A DNA stretch of 64,000 nucleotides from Trypanosoma brucei (taxonomy: Eukaryota): NCBI GenBank assembly GCA_000002445.1, contig CP000069.1, positions 1,248,001 through 1,312,000 on the forward strand, read 5' to 3'. Of this stretch, positions 2,574 through 64,000 are shown one piece after another (position 1 is the stretch's first letter; each line of letters starts with the position of its first letter). The notes under the pieces are model-generated. The model saw nothing but the letters and a program-made list of their open reading frames with translations. It had not been told where the DNA came from and made no database searches. A program made the translations under genes and the position numbers.

Positions 2574-3686
2574 TCATTCCTTCGCTCCAGAAGCTGCGGA
2601 AGTCCCTACAGTGCCAACCGCACGTTTTACATAGTTTACCTTCAGAACCCAGTGACCCGGTGTATACTCGTTCACTGTACGGTGATGCGCTTCATAGTTC
2701 GGATAATACTCGGGTTCCACACCAATCGTTCCCCCACTATGGTAAGACTTCCCCACAGCACTATCAGGGTCAATAAATACAATCACAGAAAACCGTTCAG
2801 GGTCGAACACTCTCAATACTCCACAGATACACTTCGAGTAATTAAGAGCACACGTATTCGTCTCATATGATGCAAACGAACAGTGCTCCTCAGGTGTTAT
2901 GTGTATCGTTTGATACTCGCTACCACGTATCGCATTTATGCTGTAGCCACATGGCTCATACTGAAGGTCGTGAAGGATCCATGAATCATCTACAACTTCA
3001 CTGAGCCCCGTTGCCTCCCGTATCACTGCGGTTTCAGGACCCGTAGGCAACATCTTATCCGAGTACCAGTGTTTCGTTTGATTGCGATCAAGCCCATACA
3101 TGGTCATGCTGAGTTGTGCATCGTCACTGCAGCTGGGTTGAACAACATCACTGTGGAAATACAAGAAGTAGTGGTCGCTGTCAATCGGACCAAATATGAA
3201 TGGTTGTCCCGACGGAAAATGGGACCTAAGTGTCTTAAATTCTTCCGCCATCGAAAGATGCGGTCCCTTCTGCTCCCACGGGAAACTGTAGTTTTTGTGC
3301 ATGAAGGAAACCCATTCTACTTCGCCGCAAACAGTACTCACCGCCTCGCATATGAGCGGCACGCAATTCAAAAGAGTGATGGTACCACAAGTTATGAGAA
3401 TCACGCGATCTTTCATTACAAACAATGAGCTCTCCGATAACACGTAGGAGCGAATGTATTCATTAAACTCACGGGAAACAATGTGTGCACATATAGCATC
3501 AATAACTTTTTGCCACACATCGTCATCGTGTGCAAGTAAACCACTAACGTGCGTCCCGTCCACCACCCGCATTATCACCTCCAAGCGCTTCTCAGGCCCT
3601 TCGAAGCTTCGCTCGTGCTTTGGGTCAAAACGAGCGATGGAACCCCACATCGCCATGAGCGAAAGAGAGTCCTTGCAAGAGGACAT
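2574..3686 (-). CDS. AdoMetDC: S-adenosylmethionine decarboxylase proenzyme (AdoMetDC), 370 aa
   Basis: FEGPEKRLEV N-terminal signature. Intact pyruvoyl self-processing motif YVLSESSLFV. Length and overall similarity to eukaryotic AdoMetDC. ATG start verified (cat at 3684-3686). Confidence 0.93.
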   Translation of the reverse strand: MSSCKDSLSLMAMWGSIARFDPKHERSFEGPEKRLEVIMRVVDGTHVSGLLAHDDDVWQKVIDAICAHIVSREFNEYIRSYVLSESSLFVMKDRVILITCGTITLLNCVPLICEAVSTVCGEVEWVSFMHKNYSFPWEQKGPHLSMAEEFKTLRSHFPSGQPFIFGPIDSDHYFLYFHSDVVQPSCSDDAQLSMTMYGLDRNQTKHWYSDKMLPTGPETAVIREATGLSEVVDDSWILHDLQYEPCGYSINAIRGSEYQTIHITPEEHCSFASYETNTCALNYSKCICGVLRVFDPERFSVIVFIDPDSAVGKSYHSGGTIGVEPEYYPNYEAHHRTVNEYTPGHWVLKVNYVKRAVGTVGTSAASGAKE

Positions 3687-14988: not shown

Positions 14989-15600
14989 TCATTTAACTGC
15001 CTTGGAGCGACGAATTAAGAGGTCCACTTGGCTCTGCTCCATACGGTACACAACAAGAGGAAACAAGGCGGGAACAAGACATAGGAAGGCGTAGACCGCC
15101 GCCTCCCGCACATAGCTCTTGTATAAGCGGTCATAGAACTCGCGGGTAACCACGGACACAATACCACGGAAATTTGTATCGTCGTAATCCTCTCCGTAGA
15201 AATATGCCGTACCTTCGCGGATGATGTTACTGTATGCTTTTTCTGTCTTCTTCCCTCCTCTCTCCAGGGAGTATAACACCTCCGTCACCCCAACGTGATA
15301 ACCACCAAGAGCCTTGGTGACAATGGTGTACTTAAGTTCGGCTGACTCACCGAAAGCAAGCGAATCCACCTGCTTCGTGCGCGTAGTACCGTCAGGTAGC
15401 AAGTCAGTAATGGTAATATCAAAGGCAGGGCTTTGACCGTAGTTGTAGACAGTCACAGTGAATTCGACGTTGTTGCCCACCACCACGTGGTCATCCGAGA
15501 TCATTTTCGAGACGAAAAGAAGCGGCTGGGGATCCGGCTGAGCCAGTGACCCGACGGCAGCAGCGGCCAAAAGAAGCGGGATGACATAGAGGAGCCGCAT
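14989..15600 (-). CDS. Translocon-associated protein subunit beta (TRAP-beta/SSR2)-like ER membrane protein, 203 aa
   Basis: N-terminal signal peptide ([20 protein letters not shown]). Luminal beta-sandwich block [22 protein letters not shown] aligns with human SSR2 [30 protein letters not shown] followed by one C-terminal transmembrane helix and a short basic tail, as in SSR2. Confidence 0.65.
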   Translation of the reverse strand: [203 protein letters not shown]

Positions 15601-27567: not shown

Positions 27568-28791
27568 TTACAAAGTGAGCCATTCCTCCTCGTTCGTTGT
27601 TTTCGCGAGTGCCGTGTAATCAACATCTTTAGGGTCCAGTTCTTTGTTGTAATTTGTCAACCACGGTATCAGCAAATTCGACTGCTCATTTGAGAGACGG
27701 AATACGATATCATTCAACCGAACGATGGAACCCTTATCAAGATACGTTGGGGGTAAAAGAAGGTTCCTAATCCGCACCTCAGAAGGTGGGATACCTAGAA
27801 CAAAGCACACGCGCCTTGCAATACCCTCCATTTGCCTGCGATGGGGTAGCTGGCGATTGCGCAACCACGGGTTGTCTGAAGCGATAATAATAAGAGTAAC
27901 ATCATTTCCATTGATGTAAAGAAAGTCGATTATTCCCTGGCAGCTGTCACCAGAAACCAGCGACTCTCTGCTAACACAGTAGTCAAACAGGATGTTATGC
28001 TCCCCTTTGTCACCTGTTACCAACCTCCCAGAGGCCCTTACATTTTCAGCCGTTTTACATTGTAAATACTCCATGTATCGCCTTAGTGACGAGCGGTAAC
28101 CCTCACTATAGTTAAAACCTAAGAAGTCATAAATAATGTCAATTTGACTGTAATTTCTCACAATATGAGCAACTAGCTCCTTAAAGGGGTTTCGCTCATC
28201 CACAAAAATATCATTTGTAACTGGATCCTCAGTGATATAGTTCGTAAACGCTTCATCAAATGTCCCCTGCCGCGCCAAACCATAAATGCAACATAATCGT
28301 TCCATAAACATAAAGTCCCTTGATCCGAATGCTTCCAACCGCATAAACGCGTCACGCAATAATGCCGCCTTATTCACTTCGCCCATCCACCGTAATTTCG
28401 CTACCTCTTCTTGCAGCCACGTCCTGTTCTTTTCTCTCACGACTTCCTTCGGAACCCCTGTCAAAGATGAAATCTGCAAAATATCGGCATTTAAGGCACC
28501 GAAACACTTTCTCCATCCGGACAAAATTTGCTTAAGGTTTTCCTGCTCCTGTCGGATCAATTCTTTTTGATCGTTCGGAAGATTGGGAGGAATGCGCATC
28601 TCCCACTTATTTAACTTCCAACTGAAAATTCGTTCCTCCACAAGTTCAAGCAAACCCAACTCATCCACTTTGCCCCCATCGGTCGCGTAAACAGAGGTAA
28701 CCTGGCTGTGTGTTAACGGGACAGCACCGTAAGTCGCGTGAGATCTTGCCGAGTTCCAACAATTTGCCATGAAATGACAAAACTTTCGCAT
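27568..28791 (-). CDS. Conserved hypothetical protein (407 aa)
   Basis: ATG verified at 28791. Globular-looking composition. No recognisable family. Confidence 0.6.
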   Translation of the reverse strand: MRKFCHFMANCWNSARSHATYGAVPLTHSQVTSVYATDGGKVDELGLLELVEERIFSWKLNKWEMRIPPNLPNDQKELIRQEQENLKQILSGWRKCFGALNADILQISSLTGVPKEVVREKNRTWLQEEVAKLRWMGEVNKAALLRDAFMRLEAFGSRDFMFMERLCCIYGLARQGTFDEAFTNYITEDPVTNDIFVDERNPFKELVAHIVRNYSQIDIIYDFLGFNYSEGYRSSLRRYMEYLQCKTAENVRASGRLVTGDKGEHNILFDYCVSRESLVSGDSCQGIIDFLYINGNDVTLIIIASDNPWLRNRQLPHRRQMEGIARRVCFVLGIPPSEVRIRNLLLPPTYLDKGSIVRLNDIVFRLSNEQSNLLIPWLTNYNKELDPKDVDYTALAKTTNEEEWLTL

Positions 28792-29155
28792 CTTCTTCCT
28801 TTCTAACGTTCATACACATGTGAATACGTTGACGCCATTTATTGTCGTTTCAGTGGCAGGTAAACAAAAAAAAAACATTGTAAAAGGGTCAGCACGTATA
28901 TACTTACGTATGACAGACCTTACACAACTATGAATATATATTCCGTGTAGGGGAACCTCCACATACACACAAAAACAACAGCTGATGTAAAAAGGGGTGT
29001 CAACTTTCTAAAGAACAAAACTTCTATCTCCTGTTAAGGATACAGATTCACTACAATAGGTCACCTCCACAATCACTTCCGCTATTTTCCTTCACCAAAC
29101 TTACTTTCCCACACCTCCATAACATATGAACTTGTCTCGACTTTTTAAAAAAAAA

Positions 29156-29581
29156 TCAGTACGACTCCTTTGTGTGAATGTGTCGCAGCCACTCCGCGTC
29201 CAATACGCTGCCACCCCACTCAATATAATGATTATCCATTGGATAGTGCATTGTATAGTCCAAAAAGGGCTTTTCTCCATACTCGCCATAGTAATTCGCA
29301 GCTACCCACTTTGGTATACCAAATGGAAATATAAAGTAACAGGGGAAAAACCACATGAGGAGTCGACGAAGCATCTCCCAAGTGGTTTCATACTTCCGGG
29401 TGTCGCGGTCAATCCATAGTTCCTGACGCCCCCAACCCCAGAACATCCAGAAATTCATCTGGTACTGGGGGAAAACAGAAGTATTAGGTGCTTCACGTGC
29501 GTAGTTAAATGGATACTTGGCTCCCTTCGACATTTCGAATTCTTGATAACGGTATGATAGTCTTCTACATAATCTCAGCAT
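29156..29581 (-). CDS. Small conserved protein, possibly a mitochondrial membrane protein (141 aa from the first ATG)
   Basis: The track start at 29605 is GTG. The first ATG is at 29581 (MLRLCRRLSYRY..., presequence-like). One hydrophobic Trp/Phe-rich segment (NFWMFWGWG, MWFFPCYFIFPF). Confidence 0.45.
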   Translation of the reverse strand: MLRLCRRLSYRYQEFEMSKGAKYPFNYAREAPNTSVFPQYQMNFWMFWGWGRQELWIDRDTRKYETTWEMLRRLLMWFFPCYFIFPFGIPKWVAANYYGEYGEKPFLDYTMHYPMDNHYIEWGGSVLDAEWLRHIHTKESY

Positions 29582-29882
29582 TTTCCAAGATCCTACGTCT
29601 ACCACCCCTGGATTGGCAGGGAAAAGAAAGGTTACCTAGTGCGAAAAAATTGAAATAAAATCGGTGATAATAATACATATTGTTACGTAAGCTCCGCACC
29701 TGGTTAACACATTGGAACACTTCTGCCAACACTGCCTCACACATTAAGGAACCTTCGGCGCAGACGTGCAAGAAGTGGAAAATATCTTCATTTTTAACTA
29801 CAAATAAGAAATAGGTTCAACAAGTGAACAAAAAAACGAGCCTGTCACGATGACGAAGTTTTCGTGGAAGAAAAATAAATTT

Positions 29883-30167
29883 TCAACTATCTTCATCAAC
29901 CCCAAAAATACCTTCCCCCAGTTTCCACCAGGCTAGGGTATAAAACATGTGAAGATCATGATGTTTCTCAGCTTCATTCAAGTCGCTCCAGTTGTCACCC
30001 GTAATCGGCCAGTGATACATTGATCTATAAGTTGAAAAATACCACGGGATGTTTTGGTCTAATTTCTTTACGAATGCCGGTTCCTTCATGCCGTGGGGAA
30101 ATTCACCCCGTGTTGTTAACTCTAGATCGGCATACTTCATCCTGAAAAGGATGCTCCGTCGAAGCAT
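29883..30167 (-). CDS. Small hypothetical protein (about 94 aa from the first in-frame ATG); first ORF of the leftward array
   Basis: The track start at 30206 is GTG. First internal Met is MLRRSILFRMKYADL. Aromatic-rich (WYFSTYRSMYHWP). Weakly supported. Confidence 0.35.
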   Translation of the reverse strand: MLRRSILFRMKYADLELTTRGEFPHGMKEPAFVKKLDQNIPWYFSTYRSMYHWPITGDNWSDLNEAEKHHDLHMFYTLAWWKLGEGIFGVDEDS

Positions 30168-31025
30168 GTTTCCACCTTCTACCAACGGCAGCAGGGACAC
30201 TAACACTGAAAAGAAATAACACCAATGTTATAGCACACTGTGCAGAAGCCTACAGAAACGATATGCGAAACCTGCAGTATCTACACTTGAGCAACCACAA
30301 GATCCTAACAAAGCAGAGGAAAGCGGAATAAACAATGAACAAAAATGAAGGAGTATATAACAAACGCTAAAAATTTTTAAATTCAAACAGCAAACAAAAC
30401 AGAACCCTGTACAGCAACCTTTCAAAAGCTAAAAATACTACAAACACACAGAGGTATACAACGAAAAATATGCAACTTCGTATCCTCCCGAACATAGGGG
30501 TCACAGTGCAGTCCAGAAGAAAAAAAGTGTCATAACCATTTCAACGAAAAAACGAAAATATACCCACCCAATCCGGAACAAAGAACTACAAAAATATGAT
30601 ATTTTTATTTTACAAAAGGCCAAACCGACCACGCTAACGTACAAAAAGACGCCTCTAAACATCCTAAATAAGTGTTTATTATCCAAATATTTCCCGAAAG
30701 ACGCGGTGCGCTATTGATTCTTAGCAGCAACCCCAACCACAAATATGCAAATCCCACCACAGTTACAACAAGTACTGAAACGTTCACATAAAGTATAATA
30801 AAATTGTGATGTGGTGAAAGCAGACAACCGGTCGCCAGATATAATAACTTATCCCCCACAACAGCACCTACACTGACGCTTATATATAATAACCCTCGTG
30901 CAGGAGGGAACGAAAGGAGGTGTAGGTGATCAAATAAATAAAACCAATAACGACAGCAACAGTTAATATTGAATAGCATTGAGTCAGGACCAGTAGTACA
31001 CAGAACGGCAAACATATGCATATGC

Positions 31026-31047
31026 ATATATATATATATATATATAT
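31026..31047. repeat. (TA)11 microsatellite flanked by catatgcatatg
   Basis: Sequence atatatatatatatatatatat. Confidence 0.9.
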
Positions 31048-32054
31048 CTTTAAAAAACATAGTAAACATTGCCATTCGGTGACACAAACCGTGATCCCGC
31101 TTCTGCCCCTCAATCGCAAACCCACCATCCGTCAAATTCAGCTAAATCCACACAGGTACACAGACACAGGGAACGAAAAGAGCAATTCAAGTGGAGGACC
31201 CTCGGATGTAAGGTCCAACCGACTCATCTTCCGCCCACCCGCTACCACATCACACTCACCACTATGCCAGCACTCCTCCCCAACAACTTTAATGCAAGCC
31301 TGAAAGAAGCGCAGCTGTGGAGCACGGCAGGCAGGACCCCTCAGCAGTGGCCGACAACAACAACCACCACCACCGCATTTTAAGAACTTCAGGATATAGA
31401 ATCCCGAGGGAAATACCGTCGTACGCTGTTTGGTTCATGAGAAAATCGAAGTTCCCGACTCACGGTCACATTCACGGAGGCGAAGAAATCATCAATCGAA
31501 GGTCGGCCCAGGCACTGCCCGCTACCGGGAATACGAAGCAGCAAACAGGGGAGCCACATACAAAGGAAACAGGTGTCATAAACGGGTGACGTCTCAGGCC
31601 GCCGCCGACCCTGGCAACAGCATGGCAAACCCAACCGCGCGGCCAAGGAAACTTTTTTCCGCTGACGGGCAGAACGCCTGCAGTGGAGAAAGGGCGTATA
31701 AGCGAGACGAAGAGGTAGCTCCACAAATAGCGGAAGGGTGCGGACAATGTGAACGAATTAATACGAGCGGGCCGCCTGCCGCGCTACAGCGAAATCCATC
31801 CCTAGAACAGGCGAATTTACTCCTTCGCTACGGGACGCGGAGACCCCAGACTTGGAGGGTGTGGGTGAGTAAAGTTGATGGAAATATAATGAAACCCCTT
31901 AGTGGGAGGAGGATAAGGGCTAAGCATGGTAAAATCTCCAAGGAGTAGGGTCATGGAGGCCGTAGTTTGCCTTTGGAAGAGGAGAATAACCGGGAATTTG
32001 TGGTATCCAGACCAACCCACCAACACGGCTGGTCCCAGTGGTCGCAGCGGGCTG

Positions 32055-32066
32055 CCCCCCCCCCCC
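32055..32066 (-). promoter_or_regulatory. C12 on plus (G12 on the leftward-transcribed strand); candidate directional element of the leftward pol II start region
   Basis: Exact run of 12 C in gctgccccccccccccgtgg. G-runs on the transcribed strand are the recurrent motif reported at trypanosome divergent strand-switch regions (Siegel et al. 2009; Kolev et al. 2010). Confidence 0.5.
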
Positions 32067-32104
32067 GTGGAAATTAAAAAGCATCGGGGCGGAGGCTCTT
32101 GTGG

Positions 32105-32128
32105 AAACCCTCTAGACAAAGAGGGTTT
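32105..32128. other. Perfect 9-bp stem / 6-nt loop hairpin (aaaccctct-agacaa-agagggttt) inside a GC-rich island
   Basis: Exact inverted repeat read from the sequence. Confidence 0.6.
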
Positions 32129-52820: not shown

Positions 52821-54440
52821 ATGGTCTCATGGTCCCGTCCTGAATTCGCGGAAGCATTTTTTGGCAAGCTCGTTAGGAGGCGTTGCATATACGCCACGAA
52901 GGCGGCACTCGACAGTAGTCCCTTTGTGCGCGTCCTTGGTTTACTTTCCCTCGTATCACTTGGCGTCGGTGCCGTCGTTGGCGCGGGTATATTCGTTATC
53001 ACTGGTCAGGCTGCGGCACAGTACGCGGGGCCAGGCTTGACAATCTCCTTTGTGTTGTGTATGTTTCCATGTTTCCTTACCGCTCTCTGCTATGGGGAGC
53101 TCGCCGCGATGCTACCGGTTGCGGGGAGTGCGTACACTCATACTTCTGTTGCCCTCGGGGAATTTGCGTCGTGGACAGTGGCAGTGTGTATGACATTGGA
53201 ATGCCTCGTGTCCGGATGTGCTGTTTCTGTCAGTTGGTCTGCCTATGTTCAGGCGTTCTTGAAGCGGTTTTCTTTTGTGCTGCCGCAGCCGTTGAGAAAG
53301 TCTCCGATTGATGTGGTGGGGGGAAGATTTGTCCTTACTGGGAGTGTGGTAAATTTCCCGGCTGTGGTTATCACTGTAGTGTGTTTCGTTGTACTGTGCT
53401 TAGGCGTCGAACAGACAGCCTCTATGAATAGTTTTTTTGTTGTTGTGAAGCTGGCGGCCCTTGTTTGCTTCGTATTCTACGGAATTTATTATTCGCTGGG
53501 AAACTGGGCGGAGGTCAATGCGAACCTAACCCCCTTTGTTCCACCTAACGACGGCCACTTTGGCCACTTCGGCGTCAGCGGTATCTTACGTGGGGCGAGC
53601 GTGGTTTTCTTTGCAAACGTGGGATTTGACACGATATGCGCTAGTGCCCAGGAGTGCCGCAGCCCGCAGCGGGACATCCCGCGTGGTATAATTTTAACAC
53701 TTCTGTTGTGCTCTACTCTGTACGTGATGGTGACGGTTTCGTTGACTGGCTTGGTGAAATACACCGAACTAGGAACTGATGCACCCGTGATTGCAGCGTT
53801 GGAGAAAGTGAAGGCACCGAGCTTTTTGAGACTTTTCATTGAAGTTGGTACCGTAGCGGCACTGAGTTCGGTGTGCTTCGTCTCGTTCTACGCAATGCCG
53901 CGGCTCATTATGGCCGTGGCAAAAGATGGGTTGCTACCGGCCTTACTTACCCATGTTCACGAGCAGTTCAGAACTCCTATTAACGCCACGATATTCTGTG
54001 GTATACCCGCCACTTTTATTTGCGCCGTGTTCCCGTTGGGGATGTTGGGCGAGCTGATATCATTTGGCACTCTGATTGCTCTTGCTTGTGTGTGTGTGTC
54101 CATGTGGAAGATCCGCATTGATCACCCCGAGTTCCACAGACCGTTCGTGGCTCCCCTTTTTCCCTACGTTCCTATTCTCGGGGCTCTCCTGAACGCCGCG
54201 CAACTGTTCTTCCTACCTTTAACGACATGGCGCAACTACTTTGTTGTTATGGCAACAACATCGCTGTGGTACATCGTTTACGGCATCCGCCACAGCACGG
54301 TAGGAGAGGACGGAATCACACGCCGACCGGACTCACTACTTGGCACAGTGGAGCCTCCGTTGTGCGAGGCACTGGAGGGAGTACAGGGAGCCGGTGGCAG
54401 TTTGAGCATTGAGTTGACTGAGCGTTATGTCCATAATTGA
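52821..54440 (+). CDS. Amino-acid permease of the APC/SLC7 (cationic amino-acid transporter-like) family, 539 aa, about 12-14 transmembrane helices
   Basis: Signature GAGIFVITGQAAAQYAGPGLTISF. Multiple hydrophobic helices throughout. The track start at 52812 is TTG. The first ATG is at 52821. Confidence 0.85.
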   Translation: MVSWSRPEFAEAFFGKLVRRRCIYATKAALDSSPFVRVLGLLSLVSLGVGAVVGAGIFVITGQAAAQYAGPGLTISFVLCMFPCFLTALCYGELAAMLPVAGSAYTHTSVALGEFASWTVAVCMTLECLVSGCAVSVSWSAYVQAFLKRFSFVLPQPLRKSPIDVVGGRFVLTGSVVNFPAVVITVVCFVVLCLGVEQTASMNSFFVVVKLAALVCFVFYGIYYSLGNWAEVNANLTPFVPPNDGHFGHFGVSGILRGASVVFFANVGFDTICASAQECRSPQRDIPRGIILTLLLCSTLYVMVTVSLTGLVKYTELGTDAPVIAALEKVKAPSFLRLFIEVGTVAALSSVCFVSFYAMPRLIMAVAKDGLLPALLTHVHEQFRTPINATIFCGIPATFICAVFPLGMLGELISFGTLIALACVCVSMWKIRIDHPEFHRPFVAPLFPYVPILGALLNAAQLFFLPLTTWRNYFVVMATTSLWYIVYGIRHSTVGEDGITRRPDSLLGTVEPPLCEALEGVQGAGGSLSIELTERYVHN

Positions 54441-55131
54441 GTGGGTGGCCTTTGCGACCCGTATTGTATGGTGGGTGAGCTAGAAAAGGGAGAGGGACAA
54501 GCGTATACAGGTTATTTTTTTCATACTTTTTCCTATTAATATACCAGTTTCTCTTTTTTCTTTTCCGTCTGTTGGAAGTAACCTTTTCGTTGCTACACGG
54601 TAAGTTAAAAGTAGGCTGCCTGGAAGTGGGTGTGTCTATGTACATTAGTTTCGAGTTGGCACTGACCAACGGGAGTGGCGATCGCTCCAGGTGAACCGCT
54701 GCCAGATCTGCAAACAGGTTTGGAGCCGGTGACATTTGGGAGGATGTATGCGACAAGCCTGACTGGGGTCTTGAATTTTATTCTTCATTTACTACCGCTG
54801 CCCAAGTCCCTTCGTGTCGTGGGGGGTGCACAACAAAGTTAGACTATATGGACGCATGTGTGTTTGTGCATGCATGTCAGTGTCTGCTTGTGTGCGTCTA
54901 TGCTTTCAGCAATATAGCTTCTCTTTTTTCATTGTTTCATTTTGCTTCTTTCCATCCGATAACAGACAGTGAGGGGACATAAAGATAATTTACACCCGGT
55001 ACATAATTTAATCCAATAGAGGGACGTTAGGTAAAAAAAAGTGTAAAAAAAAGAAAAGAGAGGCTTTAAATCCAAGAGAACGAAAATAAAAAAAAAAAAG
55101 GGAGCAAGTGTTCGCTTCTGAAAGTAAATAA

Positions 55132-56232
<1,101 letters not shown>

Positions 56233-57229
56233 AGTACGCATAGACTACACCGGAGAGGGGTTTATTTTGCTTTCCTCTTGCTTGTATTGCATCTATAGAG
56301 TAAATTTAACTAGGTATCATACAACGTTGTGCTTGATCGAAAAGATTGTGGAAAGGAGGAGGTTAGTTTGTTTTTTTAAAAAGGAAAATAAGAGAGGGAA
56401 AATGAAGTGTAAGAAACGTCTGGGTGCACTTTCAGGTGGGGGCGGGCGACGTGTTACCGTTAAATTGGCTCCTTTGTCAGGGCTTGTGCGTCTTTACCCT
56501 CGGGGGCCCCCTGGGAAATTGGAGAGGAATGTGAAATGGAGGCGGGAAAAGAAAGGCGAATGAATGTCTGTGCGTGCGCGTGACCACGGTGCTGTATGTG
56601 GAAATTTATGAGGGGTGAGATGCCGAAACTAGCGCTGTGTCTTTTTTTTTTTTGCTACTTCGATCCGCTCTCCAGCGGAGTTTCGTGCTCCGCGACCGCC
56701 GTGCCGTGCCCATCTGCACACCTTGTTCGTTTGTTTTTTCCCGCTAAACTTTTTTTATTTACTTTTTACAAACTGACTTTCCTTCATATATCAAAAAAAA
56801 ACTTGTCGACCGTCCCCCCTTCCCCCCTCCCCAACGGTTTCTGTGCAGCAGTGGCCGGCAGTGTGGCGCTTTTTCCCACTCGGCTTTTGAGAACTGTCCT
56901 TTTTACTTCCTTTTGTCGGCCCGACCCAACGAATAGGTAAGGTTGGTTACTTTCATTCCCACCATCTTTTCCCCCTTCCCCATTCTTCTCGTTTTATTTT
57001 ATTTGGACCCACCCGTTGCCACATATTATGCGGTCCATGAAAATGGTAGCAAAATTAGTGCGGGGAAGGCGAAGGGAAGGCATCATTGGAAGGAAACGTT
57101 GAATCTGGACTGGAGGCACTCCTTTCTTCCAGTTAGTGAATTTTCGGGTTTACGTCCCACTTTCCTATTAGTGGTGGTGTCTTCGTTCAAACGCATTGTG
57201 TCGTCACCTTGTTGGATTATTTGCTTGTG

Positions 57230-58084
57230 ATGGAGTCTTTTAAGGGGTTGGCGCGACGAGTAACGCAGAGCGTCAAGGAAAAGGTGAGTAATGTGGAGCC
57301 TACTGAGGAGGATGAGGCACTGGCCCAAGCATGCAAAAAGGTACGCCAGTTGGAGAAGGTTGGTAAAGTTCTTGAGGAAAAGTTTGTGCGTGCTTCCATG
57401 CTCATCGAAGAATTAAGTGGGATACTTAAGGAAATTGGACTGGAGTACATGCGCGTCCCGGATGTGCAACCAGAGTCTGAAAAGGTGGCAAGGGATTTGT
57501 TTTCCCTCGGAAATAGTCTCCTAGACTCCAGTGTAGCACAAAGGAAGGAGCTGAAGGAGGACGGCACGGATATGTTGAGTGCTTTTCTTAAGAATGTGAG
57601 TGTGCTTGATGCTTCAGAGGAGTCGTACCGCAAGTTTCGATTAGAGCACAACTTTCAGCGAGAGAAAGTGTGGAAGTTACGGCGGGCAGAAAGTCAGGAT
57701 TCTGACCGACTCATACGAAACGAATGCAAACTGGAGGACTGGCACGTGAAGTTGTGGACCGCTGGCGAAAAGAGTAGGGCTGCCTGCTCGCAGTTATACT
57801 ACGACGGTCGCACCTCCATTGATCTTAGTGTTATGTCATTCACCAAGGTTCTGTCAGCCTATTTCGGTGCTGTTGGAACCAAAATGAACGAGATGTTCAG
57901 CTCTATTACTCTACCGACGTATTCAACCGAACCTCTGCTTCCCCCAACGAAATTGCCACCTAGTTCAGCGCAACTTTGCAAACCGCCAGTGGGTGGCACT
58001 GCCAGTGTTCCAGAGCCTGACGAGCAGCAACAAAATCAACAAGTAGTGGATAGCGATGTGGTCACAACACATGTGGCAGCTTGA
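57230..58084 (+). CDS. Conserved hypothetical protein, helical, possibly BAR/arfaptin-like (284 aa from the first ATG)
   Basis: The track start at 57209 is TTG. The first ATG is at 57230 (MESFKGLARRV...). Predicted long amphipathic helices. Proline-rich C-terminus. Confidence 0.5.
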   Translation: MESFKGLARRVTQSVKEKVSNVEPTEEDEALAQACKKVRQLEKVGKVLEEKFVRASMLIEELSGILKEIGLEYMRVPDVQPESEKVARDLFSLGNSLLDSSVAQRKELKEDGTDMLSAFLKNVSVLDASEESYRKFRLEHNFQREKVWKLRRAESQDSDRLIRNECKLEDWHVKLWTAGEKSRAACSQLYYDGRTSIDLSVMSFTKVLSAYFGAVGTKMNEMFSSITLPTYSTEPLLPPTKLPPSSAQLCKPPVGGTASVPEPDEQQQNQQVVDSDVVTTHVAA

Positions 58085-59405
58085 TTTCTGCAGAATTAGC
58101 TGCGGTACCTTTTTCGAGGTTGGCAGTTCGTGCCGTGAAATCATTTTTTTGCGATGGGTGGTGCGTAAACGTTTGTGTGGAAAATGTTTACAAAAGCGAT
58201 CGCTGCGTCCGTGTCATCGTGTTTGGGCGTCAAATCGCCTCTTGCTGTCTCCTGGTCTGCCAGCGGTTAACCCTTCGGCCATTTAGTAAAGTGAGGCCAT
58301 TATTTCGAGGCTATCGAAGTGATCAGAAGTTTGATACTCTTTGCACTGACTGTGATTAGTTCCTTGATGTACTGAGGGAAACATAAAGCGCTTATTACTG
58401 TTTTGTTTTCATACGGTTTGTTGACGGCTACATCCACCGCCTGCTGCTCCTTCCTTTTCAACGTGCTGCCCGGTTTGCCGTTGAGAATTAACTTCGGAGC
58501 TCAGTTGCTTGAAGGCGCTGAACGACCACGTTTGGGGCTGTGGCGAGTGGTGCGTTGATTTGTTTCTAGAGGCGCCATCGACCTGCTTTAAGCCATGTTG
58601 CGACCACTAAAGAAAGGCACACTTGTGCATGCCTCGATGATTCTCGTGTGTTTATCGGTCCGTTGCAATGTGTTGAAGACCGTACAGGTCACCATGAATG
58701 CTGCTTCAGAACCAAGCGGGAGAAGAGTACAGACAACATAGGCGGTGTTTTTGTGTGCCGCAGCATGCTGTGCGGTTACTTGTGTGGAATAAGTTGGAGG
58801 AACTCTCTGGAACAATGGGCTTGAAATGTCGAGTTCCACATACTGGTACACTGTGCACATTAACCAGCTATAAGATGAGTGACGGTTGGAGTCGAAGTAC
58901 ACTAATTCTTGCGCCACTAGGTTTACCTGTAACCGTTCTCGGTTGATACAGATTGGTCTAATCACTTTTTATTAGCTGTGCACCGGTCCATGCACTCGAC
59001 TTCATGCTGAAGCATCATTAACTACCTGTTCAGCTTCCGGGTGATCCAATCGCTCGCAGATTTCACCGAGTGGACGCCGCTACGTGCAGCTACTCGGTGC
59101 GTTGTGAGGTCACTTGACGATGGCGGTTTGTGGCAAAGGTGGCAATGAATTCGGAAGTGGCGTGTTGTTTCGTTTTGCCACGTTATAACCTACCAAGGTG
59201 CGTGTCTGGAGGTGAAAGTGACCGTTTTCGTTGCCTTGTTGCCTCCCAACTTCTCTTTATTTTCTTCCGTATACATAATACGGCTAATACCGCTGTTCCC
59301 CTTTTCGACATTTTTTTTGTCTCCTTTCCCACTGCTTTGTTTAATTAATTCTAACCCTCATTTTTCGTTGCTGTATTTTGAAGGCAGAGGGGAACCGTAA
59401 AGAAT

Positions 59406-59969
59406 ATGAAGATCAAGTCGCACGACCAAATCACCTTCCCTGAGGATGTCACCGTCTCCGTAAAAGACCGCATCGTAACGGTGAAGGGGAAGCGTGGCAC
59501 GCTCACAAAGGACTTGCGTCATCTGCAACTTGACTTCCGCGTGAACAAGAAGCTCCGTACCTTCACTGCGGTTCGTTGGTTTGGTAACAAGATCAATAAC
59601 TCAACCATCAACACCGCGCTCTCGCACGTGCGCAACATGATCACTGGTGTTACAAAAGGGTTCCGCTTCAAGGTGCGTTTCGCATACGCTCACTTTCCCA
59701 TTTCTGTGACGGTGGAAAACCAATTGGTGGAGATCCGTAACTTCCTTGGGGAGAAGCGTGTCCGCCGACAAGTGGTGGCAGACGACGTGAAGGTCTATCG
59801 TACGGATGCTGCACTTGTCAAGGATGAGCTCGTGCTCGAGGGGAATGACTTGGAACAGGTGTCTCGTGAGGCTGCTGTGATGCATCAGCTCTGCCTAGTG
59901 AAGAAGAAGGATATCCGTAAGGTTCTTGGACGGCATCTACGTGCAGACAAAGACCAACATCGAAGTTGA
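59406..59969 (+). CDS. RPL9: 60S ribosomal protein L9 (uL6); in this sequence the last ~16 codons are out of frame relative to the conserved L9 C-terminus
   Basis: Strong uL6/L9 similarity throughout (FPEDVTVSVKDRIVTVKGKRGTL..., AYAHFPISV, VEIRNFLGEKRVRR, LVLEGNDLEQVS). As printed, the ORF ends KVLGRHLRADKDQHRS*. Removing one G in cttGGacgg (about 59927-59928) would give KVLDGIYVQTKTNIEVDE* ending at TAA 59974-59976. That restores the universally conserved DGIYV C-terminal motif. Confidence 0.85.
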   Translation: MKIKSHDQITFPEDVTVSVKDRIVTVKGKRGTLTKDLRHLQLDFRVNKKLRTFTAVRWFGNKINNSTINTALSHVRNMITGVTKGFRFKVRFAYAHFPISVTVENQLVEIRNFLGEKRVRRQVVADDVKVYRTDAALVKDELVLEGNDLEQVSREAAVMHQLCLVKKKDIRKVLGRHLRADKDQHRS

Positions 59970-60861
59970 TGAGTAAGAGGATTTCTCCCTTTCTGACCTG
60001 CCACATTTTTTTCTTTTTCCTTTTCATCTTATTTACTCATTTTGCGTCGAAATACTGTTCCTACCAAGGAGTTTCTTCGGTGGCCATGGGTGTCTTCGAT
60101 GGTTCGAATAAACCGACGCCCACCCCTGCATTGTAGTCTGGTGATCCCCTGGAGATGCCACATTAAGTATAACTTTCTCATATTTTTCTAATTTACATTC
60201 CCTACGCGTCTTGCGCTTGGGAGTCGAAGGAAGGTCATGAAGTTTCCTCTCAGCTATCTAGAACTTACGGGAGGAATCCCCTCTGTAGTGTTTTCGGTGG
60301 AGGGCGGGATAACGCTTCCACATAAATACACTTCCTCCGGTATTTCTTACTGTCTTGTTGGGCGTAGGCGCTGCTGTTGAGGGTGTGAGTGATGGGACGG
60401 CGGTTAATGCTGTTACTGAGCTGTAAGCGGGGCGGATGGATAATGCCACTTCATCATCCCGCTGCTTCAATGTTTTCAGCGCCTCTTAGTTACCGGCGGC
60501 TGTCGGCGTGGCGTGTAGGTCCTTCCACGGAGATCTTCTCTGCTTGTAACTACACAAGTTTTTATACTTGCGGCGGCGTATTTCACGTTGCGATGCCTGA
60601 GCTATTTCGTATTCAACTTAGGCGTTCACCGTTTGCTTCACCCGGGTTGAGTTACACGCGGTAGAAGACATTAATACATGTTACATTAAAAGTGGACGGA
60701 TATTTCTTTTTTGTTTTCTTTATTTTTTACCTTCTCTGTGCTGTTACGTTGTTTCGGGAATCCACACTCCTTTGTGTAGGGGCTGCACCCACGGTAACAA
60801 AAAAGGGGGTAGAACATAGAGACAGCACGTGGCGTGCGGGCGTTGGCTCCTTATCTGAGCC

Positions 60862-61833
60862 ATGAGATCGTCTCCCCGTTTAGCCATGTCCATGTGGGAT
60901 AATCCTGCATTTGAACACAACCCCCTCACCCGCTACTGGAAGCGCATGATGAAGCGCAGCGGTGAGACGCTTACTTCTCATAGTATTCCTCGACACATAC
61001 ATGGGTATATCGAGTCATCGAATCCTCGCACAGAGTGCCTCGTCAGGTGGTTTCCCTACAAGCAGCAGATGACTGTGGATGGCCGCTACGTACCAACCCT
61101 CGGTGACATTATCTACACGCATTACTTCCCAAAGCAGCTTGACGACGACCAACGGGTTAAGTACGTCGCTTTGAAGACTAACAGGTCTGAGTTGGAGGTT
61201 GCGGAGGAGCTCTTTCTAATGCGCAAGATGAAGCTGTTTGTCTCACAATTACTTCGGAACAAGCTGCAAAATAGGCCTTTGAGAATGCCGGATGGAGTTG
61301 ACTATTCGGGCATCGAACGTCGCTACACGCTTGGCATCGCCAAAGTGGCGCAAGCAATGGGTATGAGCATGTACCGCTCGCAGTCGTACGACCCCACTGT
61401 AGTATATTCGCCTTATTTAGATTTTGGTGATTGTATTGACTGCGTCTGCACTAAGCAGCTGCGGACTTCGAGCCAGTATTTGCTTTGCGAAGTCGCTGTG
61501 CATCGTGGCATTGCACGGAGCCGTTTGACTGACGTGACAGAAGATCCAAAGGAACCCCTATCGCACCTTGAACCATCTCTCTACGAGTTCGTCAAGTTGA
61601 GACTGGGTATACTCGCGGTTGCAGCAAAACAGGAGCATTATGTTGTCGACCACATGTTTGACGGGGGACATAGGTACGGCGGGTGCCTAATCCATCTCTT
61701 CCCTTCCCCACTCGATCCAGAAATCATCGATCATGAGGTTGAGCATATTGAGCTGGATCTTGATCTGGCGCGGCGCTGGATGAAACACTACTACGACCAC
61801 TACGTCGCTCCCAGGCGATCGGGGCTTGCATAG
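60862..61833 (+). CDS. Conserved hypothetical protein (323 aa)
   Basis: ATG verified at 60862. Globular composition. Orientation matches the array. No recognisable domain. Confidence 0.55.
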   Translation: MRSSPRLAMSMWDNPAFEHNPLTRYWKRMMKRSGETLTSHSIPRHIHGYIESSNPRTECLVRWFPYKQQMTVDGRYVPTLGDIIYTHYFPKQLDDDQRVKYVALKTNRSELEVAEELFLMRKMKLFVSQLLRNKLQNRPLRMPDGVDYSGIERRYTLGIAKVAQAMGMSMYRSQSYDPTVVYSPYLDFGDCIDCVCTKQLRTSSQYLLCEVAVHRGIARSRLTDVTEDPKEPLSHLEPSLYEFVKLRLGILAVAAKQEHYVVDHMFDGGHRYGGCLIHLFPSPLDPEIIDHEVEHIELDLDLARRWMKHYYDHYVAPRRSGLA

Positions 61834-62630
61834 TGTGACTTTGTGGTCCATCATATCGTGTGGCTATTGATGTTTCTGCATGTTGCTGAGAAGCTTTTAG
61901 CTCAAGTGGTTGGTTTGCGGGTTCGTGTCGCACACAGATAACCTGCAGAGGCGGGGTGCCGTGGTGTCAGTTTCCCCCAGAACCGTTTAATGAATCTCGT
62001 TCTTGGAGGCCGTCACTGTCTGTCGCTTCTTGGTGCTTTTGGAAGCTTTTTCATTGCTAGGAACGCCTCCTTGTACAGGGAAAGTGCGTCCGCACCGAGA
62101 CGGCAGTGACACCTCAATCTTTTCCGTGCTATATGATTTGGTCTTAGAGGACATAGCGACTATCTCAACCCTGGAGACTAGTATCTTCTCGACGAGGATT
62201 CATAATGGAGAAAAGCGCTGTAAAGGGCAACAGAAGTAGCATCGTGTTTCGACTTATGATTGGACAGATGAAGGGTGAGAAAGTGAATACCTGTGAGAGA
62301 AGTGGTTCCCCCTCCGCACCGACATCGAATAGCAAGCCCATGCATATATGTTTGTTTGTATGCGCGTCAAAGTTGTTGGATACCATCGTTCGCGGTTAAA
62401 AAAAAAAAAGAAACAGGTTTGTCTCTTTTTGTTCGTTGAGGGACTTTGACTTCCTCTTTTTGTCGCTTTCACTACCCTTTGGAGTTGTCATATTTACTTT
62501 TTCACTGGTTGTTCTCTTTCTATTGCCTCTCTCGTCTTTCATACTTGCAGCCCCTCTGCGTTCAGTTTTAGGCCGCGACAGCGTTTTTTTTTCAATTAAT
62601 TTTGCGGCGACTTTCGTTTGACGTACAGCA

Positions 62631-64000
62631 ATGACGCACGTTGGTGCTGCGCACAGCTTGCCTCCTCAATTTGATTCGCTTAGCCCAGAGGAGGTTGACA
62701 TGCTTCGTGACTCTTTCATTTATATGGACCGTGATAACGATGGTCACGTGAGTAAGGCTGAGTTACTTGATATGGTCTTTCGCTGTGTGGGTGAGGAGCG
62801 GTATGGACCATTGGTTTCGTACCTTCTTCCGCTGTTCGATGTGGCCGACAAGGATGGTGATGGCAAATTGAGTCTCGCCGAGTTCGTAATGTCTTTTGTT
62901 GATGGTCCTGGTGTTGTCCCGGCGGAGGTAATAAATAGCTGCGTGTCGTCAATTCGCGTTCGTCTCACAGATGAAGAGATTGTAACGCTGCAGGATTCGT
63001 TTCGCCGCATCGACACGAAGGCTGATGGCTACATAGACAGGGAGGAACTGCTTGCTGCTCTTAAGGAGAATCTCAAGGATACATTCCCCGATCTGAGAGA
63101 GAACAACTTTAATGACATCGTCGCCGTTATTATGGCCAGCGCGGATGTGGACAACGACGGTCGCTTATGCTTATCAGAGTTCATTCGTTCTTTTCAAGAA
63201 GACCAAGGCGTGTTGCCAGCCGTGTTTGTGGATGCAAGATCGAATGGCTTTGTGCAACATCTTTCACCGGCGGAGGTTGAGGTTCTCCGGGAGGCCTTTG
63301 CGACATTGGACAAAAACCACGATGGTTATGTGGAGTTTGCTGATATATACGAGTCGCTGTGGGAGGCCGTCTCCGACGAAAACTACGACAAAAATCAAAT
63401 ATATGAGCTCTGTGATCTCATAATGGTCACAACAGACCGCAGCAAAAGCGGCGTCCTAACTCTGGGGGACTTTGTTCGGGGGTTTATTCGTAACGTCACC
63501 TTGGTGCAACTTCCCGTCGCAACTGCACATGAAGAAATACTACGTTGTTGCGAACGTGTGCAACTGTTGTTCGAGAGTGGTGAGCTGGAGCGGCTTTCAG
63601 GGTACACTGAAACTGGTGAAAACACAACGAAATGTGTAAATCCTGGTGGCCTCGTGTCTGTACTTAGCAACGTGTTTCGCGATGGCTTCCCTCTGCTGGA
63701 GGAAGAAATTCTTTCATCCGTAATAGGTGCCCTCGTGGCTGCGTCTGAAAACGATCTAGATAAGAAATTTGGAATTGAGGAGTTTATTTCATGCTTCGCC
63801 GGGGGTCCGTGCTCTTCCTCTGACGGTGTCGGGTTGCTGGATCACGAGAACGCTATTTCTGAGTCAGACGTCCAAACTGTTTCGAGGCTCCTCAGGGACC
63901 TGGGGAAAAGTGCTGATGAAGGCGGAAATGTGCAAGAGCCATTTGTGCTGGAGGCTGTCAGAAATACCTTCCGCGATGATCCAGAGAAGGCAGACCGTGT
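62631..64000 (+). CDS. Multi-EF-hand calcium-binding protein, 3'-partial (first 456 aa; continues beyond the window)
   Basis: ATG at 62631, open to the window end. It is absent from the ORF track only because no stop falls inside the window. Repeated canonical EF-hand loops: DRDNDGHVSKAEL, DKDGDGKLSLAEF, DTKADGYIDREEL, DVDNDGRLCLSEF, DKNHDGYVEFADI. Confidence 0.8.
   Translation, partial: MTHVGAAHSLPPQFDSLSPEEVDMLRDSFIYMDRDNDGHVSKAELLDMVFRCVGEERYGPLVSYLLPLFDVADKDGDGKLSLAEFVMSFVDGPGVVPAEVINSCVSSIRVRLTDEEIVTLQDSFRRIDTKADGYIDREELLAALKENLKDTFPDLRENNFNDIVAVIMASADVDNDGRLCLSEFIRSFQEDQGVLPAVFVDARSNGFVQHLSPAEVEVLREAFATLDKNHDGYVEFADIYESLWEAVSDENYDKNQIYELCDLIMVTTDRSKSGVLTLGDFVRGFIRNVTLVQLPVATAHEEILRCCERVQLLFESGELERLSGYTETGENTTKCVNPGGLVSVLSNVFRDGFPLLEEEILSSVIGALVAASENDLDKKFGIEEFISCFAGGPCSSSDGVGLLDHENAISESDVQTVSRLLRDLGKSADEGGNVQEPFVLEAVRNTFRDDPEKADR

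What the first reader, a model, noticed from the sequence alone, without database searches (positions are those of the whole stretch)
59900..59976. Ribosomal protein L9 gene carries a +1 frameshift before its conserved C-terminus
As printed, the L9 ORF ends ...IRKVLGRHLRADKDQHRS*. Eukaryotic L9/uL6 proteins end with ...IRK(F/V)LDGIYV... Reading one base later after KVL gives DGIYVQTKTNIEVDE* with a TAA at 59974-59976. A single extra G in cttGGacgg (about 59927-59928) therefore separates this sequence from an intact L9. The cause could be a sequencing or assembly error, a strain-specific lesion in one copy of a multicopy gene, or a deliberate alteration.
Basis: seen in the sequence. Interest (0 to 1): 0.5.

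Follow-up and report, generated by a model that had tools for sequence, protein, structure and literature searches.

The report
One-base frameshift in reference L9 gene
The public Trypanosoma brucei TREU927 reference has one extra G near the end of its chromosome-6 ribosomal protein L9 gene, which scrambles the last 17 amino acids; every relative and the second gene copy lack it, so it is a reference error or a private, tolerated lesion and not new biology.

Summary
ORF 59406..59969 encodes a 187-aa uL6/L9 ending ...IRKVLGRHLRADKDQHRS*. The next frame encodes the conserved end up to TAA 59974-59976.

It is one G of the GG at 59921-59922 (AAG|G|TTC), not cttGGacgg at 59928-59929. Removing it gives ...IRKFLDGIYVQTKTNIEVDE, which is 189/189 identical to the uL6 chain of the solved T. 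brucei ribosome (4V8M).

The window is T. b. brucei TREU927 chromosome 6, by inference positions 1,248,001-1,312,000. The shifted 187-aa product is already deposited as XP_845586.1/Q587D5 (by inference gene Tb927.6.4690), so the G was not planted.

The syntenic gene lacks the G in T. b. gambiense DAL972, T. b. equiperdum and T. evansi STIB805 (12 of 13 reads, published table). The chromosome-10 paralogue lacks it too.

The two paralogues differ only at 15 synonymous sites plus the stop codon, so the gene shows no other decay.

I could not decide between an uncorrected reference or clone error (about 0.55) and a genuine, probably heterozygous, TREU927 allele (about 0.40). Programmed frameshifting is effectively excluded. 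Interest is low.

The parts
59406..59969 (+). uL6/L9 ORF as printed (187 aa). It is identical to the deposited TREU927 protein XP_845586.1 / AAZ12027.1 / Q587D5; the gene name Tb927.6.4690 is inferred.
   Evidence: P0122 is identical. Pfam Ribosomal_L6 scores 84.3 bits. The gene name comes from the Lys172fs entry.
59921..59922 (+). GG doublet, one G of which is the extra base (AAG|G|TTC, straight after the Lys172 codon). This is the actual frameshift site.
   Evidence: Single-base gap in the alignments with L002, L003 and L001. Deleting one G gives a protein 189/189 identical to 4v8m_By and to P0001.
59923..59976 (+). The authentic C-terminal coding segment, FLDGIYVQTKTNIEVDE plus TAA, now one base out of frame with the upstream CDS.
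   Evidence: F173, L174, D175 and G176 are invariant, and I177, Y178, V179 and K182 are at least 90% conserved, in homologues.
59967..59969 (+). Out-of-frame TGA that ends the ORF as printed.
59974..59976 (+). Authentic TAA stop of the intact gene. The chromosome-10 paralogue uses TAG here.
59838..59974 (+). Stretch identical, apart from the extra G, to the chromosome-10 paralogue. Short reads lying wholly inside it cannot be assigned to one copy.
   Evidence: The nearest paralogue-specific sites are 59828 and 59837 upstream, and 59976 plus the diverged 3' UTR downstream. Logan contigs break at 59946.
59225..59405 (+). Upstream pyrimidine-rich tracts followed by AG dinucleotides just before the ATG. 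I infer this is the trans-splicing acceptor region and a short 5' UTR; this was not tested.
   Evidence: Sequence, inference only. TREU927 lacks a 5-nt TCTTT unit after 59253 relative to L002 and L003.

Best explanation
The window is T. brucei brucei TREU927 chromosome 6. The gene is the chromosome-6 paralogue of cytosolic large-subunit ribosomal protein uL6 (L9), by inference Tb927.6.4690. The deposited sequence has one extra G in the GG at 59921-59922, straight after the Lys172 codon. This replaces the last 17 residues (FLDGIYVQTKTNIEVDE) with 15 unrelated ones (VLGRHLRADKDQHRS), and so removes the invariant F-L-D-G block. The insertion is private to the TREU927 reference record. I think it most likely an uncorrected single-base error of the capillary-era reference or of the sequenced clone. 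It would have escaped curation because it changes the ORF length by only 2 codons. On this reading the real gene encodes the normal 189-aa uL6 and nothing biological happens here. Shown: the identity of the gene, the exact site, its absence from all comparators, and the lack of any other decay. Inferred: that the cause is an error and not a true allele.
For: Deleting one G gives a protein 189/189 identical to the uL6 chain of the solved T. brucei ribosome, 4v8m_By, and to P0001. P0001 carries accessions from DAL972 (two loci), T. b. equiperdum and EAN77540.1, and the chromosome-10 gene is Tb927.10.1100/Q38CD0. The syntenic chromosome-6 loci of DAL972 and T. b. equiperdum are 99.5% identical over 9.6 kb. 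The G is the only indel inside a coding sequence; the other roughly 9 indel events are all intergenic. T. evansi STIB805 reads lack the G in 12 of 13 cases, listed as Lys172fs at Tb927_06_v4:1307921. There is no other sign of decay: the chromosome-6 and chromosome-10 copies differ at 15 sites, all synonymous third positions, plus the stop codon. The lost block F173-L174-D175-G176 is invariant in 112 homologues, so a real allele would probably be defective. That argues against one persisting in a highly expressed ribosomal protein gene. Reference errors of this type are documented: TREU927's own Illumina reads gave 58 homozygous CDS indel discrepancies against the reference.
Against: No read-level data for TREU927 at this site could be reached. 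The relevant table (S5 of PMC4288722) is held only up to chromosome 1. Genuine allele-specific 1-bp frameshifts are common in T. brucei: 123 genes differ in CDS length between alleles in Lister 427, with no nonsense-mediated decay. The prior for a real heterozygous allele captured in a mosaic reference is therefore about as large as that for an error. With two loci and two alleles each, losing one of four copies could be nearly neutral. INSDC, RefSeq and UniProt still carry the 187-aa form.
Confidence: 0.55

Rival explanations
1. The extra G is a genuine TREU927-specific mutation, most likely heterozygous and captured because the reference is a one-allele mosaic. It inactivates or cripples one chromosome-6 uL6 allele. 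The cell tolerates it because Tb927.10.1100, and probably the other chromosome-6 allele, encode identical intact uL6. Without nonsense-mediated decay the mRNA would be made and translated into a uL6 that lacks the invariant FLDG block, and this product would probably be degraded or fail to assemble.
For: Real allele-specific 1-bp insertions and 123 genes with allele-specific CDS length exist in T. brucei Lister 427, with transcript levels unchanged. In TREU927 Illumina data most CDS indels against the reference were heterozygous (1630 in total, only 58 homozygous). An identical intact paralogue provides redundancy. Duplication of a G next to a G is a typical slippage mutation (inference).
Against: The gene is otherwise under strict purifying selection, with 0 nonsynonymous against 15 synonymous differences between paralogues. 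The lesion removes invariant residues. It is absent from four other Trypanozoon sequences. Many 'heterozygous' indel calls in duplicated genes are paralogue mis-mapping, and that would apply to the 137-nt shared stretch here.
Confidence: 0.4
2. Programmed +1 ribosomal frameshifting: the ribosome skips one base around AAG-G or CUU-GGA-C, so that full-length uL6 is made from the shifted gene.
For: The shifted frame is perfectly intact to its stop. In the printed frame CUU GGA C loosely resembles the CUU-NNN-C heptamers of Ty1 and RF2 (resemblance recalled from memory).
Against: The shift is not conserved. The syntenic gene in DAL972, T. b. equiperdum and T. evansi, and the paralogue, are all in one frame. 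The F173 codon shows that the base was inserted at AAG|G, where tRNA-Lys re-pairing on AGG would be poor (inference). The downstream RNA has no unusual structure: z = +0.39, with 136 of 200 shuffles folding at least as well.
Confidence: 0.01
3. The base was deliberately introduced into this window (a planted alteration), or the window comes from a low-quality assembly.
For: None found.
Against: The same 187-aa product is deposited for TREU927 under four accessions. Seven other window ORFs match deposited proteins exactly: their clusters list accessions AAZ11998-AAZ12028, and three of them are named TREU927 on the 1,618,915-bp contig. The published coordinate 1,307,921 for the G indel places the window start at exactly 1,248,001 = 39 x 32,000 + 1. 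No other CDS indel against T. evansi is listed between 1,200,573 and 1,315,002.
Confidence: 0.01

Closest known systems
Tb927.10.1100 (Q38CD0), the chromosome-10 uL6/L9 paralogue of T. brucei, which has the same sequence as chain By of the T. brucei ribosome structure 4V8M
   Same: After one G is removed the encoded protein is 189/189 identical. Both carry two Ribosomal_L6 (PF00347) stretches. The CDS is about 97% identical, with only synonymous differences.
   Different: The window copy has the extra G at 59921/22, TAA instead of TAG, and unrelated UTRs and neighbours. The chromosome-10 copy sits next to two S12/S23-family (PF00164) genes. The chromosome-6 copy lies between a 284-aa and a 323-aa conserved hypothetical gene.
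The deposited record itself: XP_845586.1 / AAZ12027.1 / AAX79242.1 / UniProt Q587D5, '60S ribosomal protein L9, putative', T. b. brucei TREU927 (by inference Tb927.6.4690)
   Same: Identical 187-aa sequence, including the aberrant tail. It lies on a 1,618,915-bp contig.
   Different: Nothing differs. This is the same object, so the finding concerns a public annotation that carries an unflagged frameshift.
Allele-specific 1-bp frameshift alleles of T. brucei Lister 427 (Cosentino, Brink and Siegel 2021, PMC8445201)
   Same: A single-base insertion in one sequence version of a gene whose orthologues in other strains are intact. No nonsense-mediated decay is expected.
   Different: Those cases were phased and supported by RNA-seq and Ribo-seq. 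Here no read data for TREU927 are available, the affected gene is a duplicated essential ribosomal protein gene, and only the last 17 residues change.
Programmed +1 frameshift genes (antizyme, Ty1, bacterial RF2; from general knowledge)
   Same: Two overlapping frames together encode one conserved protein.
   Different: There is no conservation of the shift in any relative, no recognisable shift-prone site at the true insertion point, and no stimulatory structure.

Membership tests
Ribosomal protein uL6 (eukaryotic L9), Pfam PF00347 Ribosomal_L6 | Two L6 alpha/beta repeats detected above the curated threshold | tested here: met
   PF00347 scores 84.3 bits as printed and 87.2 bits after repair (cutoff 27), with 2 stretches in each case.
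Ribosomal protein uL6 (eukaryotic L9), Pfam PF00347 Ribosomal_L6 | Conserved C-terminal block K-D-I-R-x-F-L-D-G-I-Y-V (I recall it as part of the PROSITE L6 signature 2; that is from memory) | tested here: not met
   As printed, the block reads KDIRKVLGRHLR. F173, L174, D175 and G176 are invariant in 112 homologues. The feature is met only after one G at 59921/22 is removed.
Ribosomal protein uL6 (eukaryotic L9), Pfam PF00347 Ribosomal_L6 | Identity with the protein found in the organism's ribosome | tested here: met
   The repaired translation is 189/189 identical to 4v8m_By (also in entries 8ova and 8ove), E = 4e-121. As printed, residues 1-172 are identical.
Decayed pseudogene | Further lesions or relaxed constraint (nonsynonymous changes, extra indels or stops) | tested here: not met
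   Against the paralogue there are 0 nonsynonymous and 15 synonymous differences. Against the syntenic orthologues there are only 1-2 synonymous differences and the single G.
Decayed pseudogene | Loss of expression | not testable with these tools
   No RNA-seq reads are available. The upstream pyrimidine tracts and AG sites are intact (inference only).
Programmed +1 ribosomal frameshift site | The frameshift is conserved in orthologues | tested here: not met
   DAL972, T. b. equiperdum, T. evansi and the chromosome-10 paralogue all have the single-frame gene.
Programmed +1 ribosomal frameshift site | Stimulatory RNA structure or a shift-prone codon at the site | tested here: not met
   Folding 59923-60040 gives z = +0.39 against shuffles. 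AAG-G is not a known +1 shift site (general knowledge).
Reference-sequence error | The strain's own independent reads disagree with the deposited base | not testable with these tools
   S5 Table of PMC4288722 would show this, but the stored copy stops in chromosome 1. Logan contigs stop at 59946 and are not TREU927.

The most novel reading that the evidence does not exclude
The G is real in TREU927, and the mRNA is stable because trypanosomes appear to lack nonsense-mediated decay. Either it yields a uL6 variant with a basic VLGRHLRADKDQHRS tail that enters a subset of ribosomes, or low-level +1 recoding rescues it. That would be a strain-specific case of ribosome heterogeneity or recoding in a kinetoplastid.
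Probability: 0.02. Interest if true: 0.5.

Novelty: already known. Interest (0 to 1): 0.1.

Why it matters
It matters mainly as a data-quality note. The most widely used T. brucei reference carries a uL6/L9 entry (XP_845586.1, Q587D5) with a wrong, or at best allele-specific, C-terminus.

The error has already spread. The T. equiperdum OVI gene model (151 aa) ends in the same out-of-frame DKDQHRS across a scaffold gap.

Anyone using this entry would be misled about the last 17 residues. That includes work on peptide databases, primer or tag design (C-terminal tagging would fuse to the wrong frame) and evolutionary comparison. No new biology is implied.

Tried and rejected
1. I looked up the printed 187-aa product in the contig index and found no record. 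The cluster look-up later showed it is deposited for TREU927.

2. The T. equiperdum OVI model P0121 ends in DKDQHRS, which looked like independent support for the shifted frame. The DNA shows a run of N over the site, so this is an annotation-transfer artefact and tells us nothing.

3. P0122 lacks the 'eukprot' source tag while P0001 has it, which I took as a hint that a later TREU927 proteome had been corrected. I rejected this: the three cluster members that carry an EukProt EP00681 id are DAL972-specific proteins, and the TREU927-only forms lack the tag.

4. I fetched Logan read-assembly contigs through the downstream gene. The best one begins at window 59946, 25 nt short of the site, as expected from a k-mer break in the stretch shared by the paralogues. 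They also carry non-TREU927 alleles.

5. I searched the protein collection with the aberrant tail alone. Neither result is informative.

6. Literature searches for Q587D5 and Tb927.6.4690 returned no paper. The gambiense genome paper, the Lister 427 Nanopore paper and the supplements of the phased-genome paper do not mention the gene.

7. Programmed frameshifting is rejected on lack of conservation and lack of structure.

8. An AlphaFold model of the intact protein (mean pLDDT 81.9) has pLDDT below 50 for residues 169-175, so it cannot say how the invariant block is held. It places a final strand at 179-184, which the frameshift would also abolish.

Full report
**What is in the sequence**

The ORF at 59406..59969 (+) encodes 187 aa ending ...LCLVKKKDIRKVLGRHLRADKDQHRS, with TGA at 59967-59969. 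Pfam recognises it as Ribosomal_L6 (PF00347, 84.3 bits, two stretches).

The next frame, read from 59923, gives FLDGIYVQTKTNIEVDE* with TAA at 59974-59976. Read from 59929 it gives DGIYVQTKTNIEVDE*. A run of 17 residues matching the known protein in the alternative frame cannot be chance.

**Where the extra base is**

That GG is at 59928-59929, and removing one of its bases would give K-V-L-D-G.

Joining 59406-59921 to 59923-59976, which drops one G of the GG at 59921-59922, gives ...DIRKFLDGIYVQTKTNIEVDE. This 189-aa protein is identical over all 189 residues to chain By of the T. brucei ribosome structure 4V8M (E = 4e-121). It is also identical to protein P0001 of the large collection.

Position 173 is F in 112 of 112 homologues, and L174, D175 and G176 are equally invariant.

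DNA alignment settles the point. Three intact copies read CGTAA-GTTCTTGGACGGC where the window reads CGTAAGGTTCTTGGACGGC. The lesion is AAG|G|TTC, immediately after the Lys172 codon.

**Where the window comes from**

The printed 187-aa product is exactly P0122. That protein is deposited as '60S ribosomal protein L9, putative [Trypanosoma brucei brucei TREU927]' under AAZ12027.1, XP_845586.1, AAX79242.1 and UniProt Q587D5, on a 1,618,915-bp contig.

Seven other window ORFs are exact matches to deposited proteins. Their clusters list accessions in the neighbouring series AAZ11998-AAZ12028, and three of them are named TREU927 on the same contig.

Supplementary table S4 of Carnes et al. 2015 (PMC4288722) lists, for T. 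evansi STIB805 against the reference: 'Tb927_06_v4 1307921 Indel 1 G -> - 92.3% 12/13 Lys172fs Tb927.6.4690'. The same base, residue and chromosome identify this as our site. I therefore infer that the gene is Tb927.6.4690. I also infer that the window is chromosome 6 positions 1,248,001-1,312,000, whose start is exactly 39 x 32,000 + 1.

The G is thus part of the public reference and was not added to this window.

**Comparison with other copies**

- *Syntenic loci.* Those of T. b. gambiense DAL972 (L003) and T. b. equiperdum GCA_003543875.1 (L002) match window 54410-64000 at 99.5%. Of about ten indel events in that span, nine lie between genes. The G at 59921 is the only one inside a called coding sequence.
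- *T. evansi.* It also lacks the G. The same table lists no other coding indel between 1,200,573 and 1,315,002, so the region is not generally of poor quality.
- *Second locus.* It lies on chromosome 10, next to two S12/S23-family (PF00164) genes, and is Tb927.10.1100/Q38CD0. It encodes the identical 189-aa protein. The accession list of P0001 includes EAN77540.1, which from my own knowledge belongs to the TREU927 chromosome 9-11 submission.
- *Constraint.* The chromosome-6 and chromosome-10 coding sequences differ at 15 positions, all synonymous third positions, plus TAA against TAG. Homology stops at the CDS borders. Both copies are therefore under strict constraint, and the chromosome-6 copy shows no decay apart from this one base.
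- *T. equiperdum OVI.* Its 151-aa model ends in the out-of-frame DKDQHRS, but its DNA has a run of N over the site. This is the TREU927 frame carried over by annotation transfer and is not independent evidence.

**Consequence for the protein**

As printed, residues 173-189 (FLDGIYVQTKTNIEVDE) are replaced by VLGRHLRADKDQHRS. This removes four invariant residues and four that are at least 90% conserved.

An AlphaFold model of the intact protein (mean pLDDT 81.9) gives a helix at 149-162, a low-confidence loop that includes 169-175, and a last strand at 179-184. The frameshift changes everything from residue 173 on, including that strand. The model is too uncertain in the loop to say more.

I infer that the printed product would be defective in folding or rRNA binding. 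This was not tested.

**Cause**

Two explanations remain, and the tools could not separate them.

*(a) An uncorrected error of the reference or of the sequenced clone.* Carnes et al. report 58 homozygous coding indel discrepancies between TREU927 Illumina reads and the reference. An error that changes the ORF length by only two codons would easily escape curation. A defective allele of a highly expressed ribosomal protein gene is less likely to persist than a lesion in an average gene.

*(b) A genuine, probably heterozygous, TREU927 allele.* In Lister 427, 123 genes differ in CDS length between alleles. These include 1-bp insertions where the other allele matches other strains, and there is no nonsense-mediated decay. 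Four gene copies give redundancy.

I put (a) at about 0.55 and (b) at about 0.40. The table that would decide this (S5 of the same paper) is stored only as far as chromosome 1.

Short-read evidence needs care. The 137 nt from 59838 to 59974 are identical in the two paralogues. That probably explains the 13x coverage in T. evansi (inference). It also explains why Logan contigs that approach from the 3' UTR stop at 59946.

**Rejected readings**

Programmed +1 frameshifting is rejected for three reasons:

- The shift is absent from every relative.
- The true insertion point, AAG|G, is not a known shift-prone site.
- The downstream RNA folds no better than shuffled sequence (z = +0.39).

A planted alteration is refuted by the public records.

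**Verdict**

This is an ordinary single-base frameshift in a public reference gene. It is correctly spotted but mislocated by 7 nt, already present in the databases, and tabulated (without comment) in a 2015 supplement. Its value is as an annotation correction. Interest is low.

Noticed in passing
L004:3001-3468 (T. equiperdum OVI, CZPT02000598.1); equivalent to window 59406-59976: The T. equiperdum L9 gene model (151 aa, SCU66692.1) jumps across a scaffold gap (a run of N) and ends in the out-of-frame DKDQHRS tail. The TREU927 frameshifted frame has been propagated by annotation transfer.
   Followed up: yes
L002:8224-9309; equivalent to window 63714-63716 (EF-hand gene starting at window 62631): In T. 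b. equiperdum GCA_003543875.1, codon 362 of the downstream EF-hand protein is TGA instead of TCA (C to G at window-equivalent 63715). This cuts a 673-aa protein to 361 aa. The window and DAL972 have the intact codon.
   Followed up: partly
window 59838-59974 against L001: The last 137 nt of the two L9 paralogues are identical, while the first 432 nt hold all 15 synonymous differences. Under an even spread the chance of this is about 0.016. It may mark a recent gene-conversion tract at the 3' end, and it also makes short reads ambiguous at the frameshift site.
   Followed up: partly
window 59253-59254, 59311: TREU927 lacks a 5-nt TCTTT unit in the pyrimidine tract upstream of L9 relative to DAL972 and T. 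b. equiperdum, and a T-run length varies at 59311. These are ordinary length polymorphisms in the presumed splice-acceptor region.
   Followed up: no
window 28800-37570: All long ORFs left of about 28.8 kb are on the minus strand, and all right of about 37.6 kb are on the plus strand. The roughly 9-kb stretch between them has no ORF of 200 aa or more. It looks like a divergent strand-switch region between two polycistronic units. No tRNA genes were found anywhere in the window.
   Followed up: no
window 2574-3686 (-), 14989-15600 (-) and 27568-28791 (-): Exact matches to deposited proteins. The first is S-adenosylmethionine decarboxylase; two accessions, AAZ11999.1 and AAZ12004.1, share the sequence, which suggests a local duplicate. 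The second is named translocon-associated protein subunit beta in UniRef. The third belongs to the same 90%-identity cluster as mitoribosomal protein ms56 (chain DI of 6HIV/6HIW), but it is not the identical sequence.
   Followed up: no
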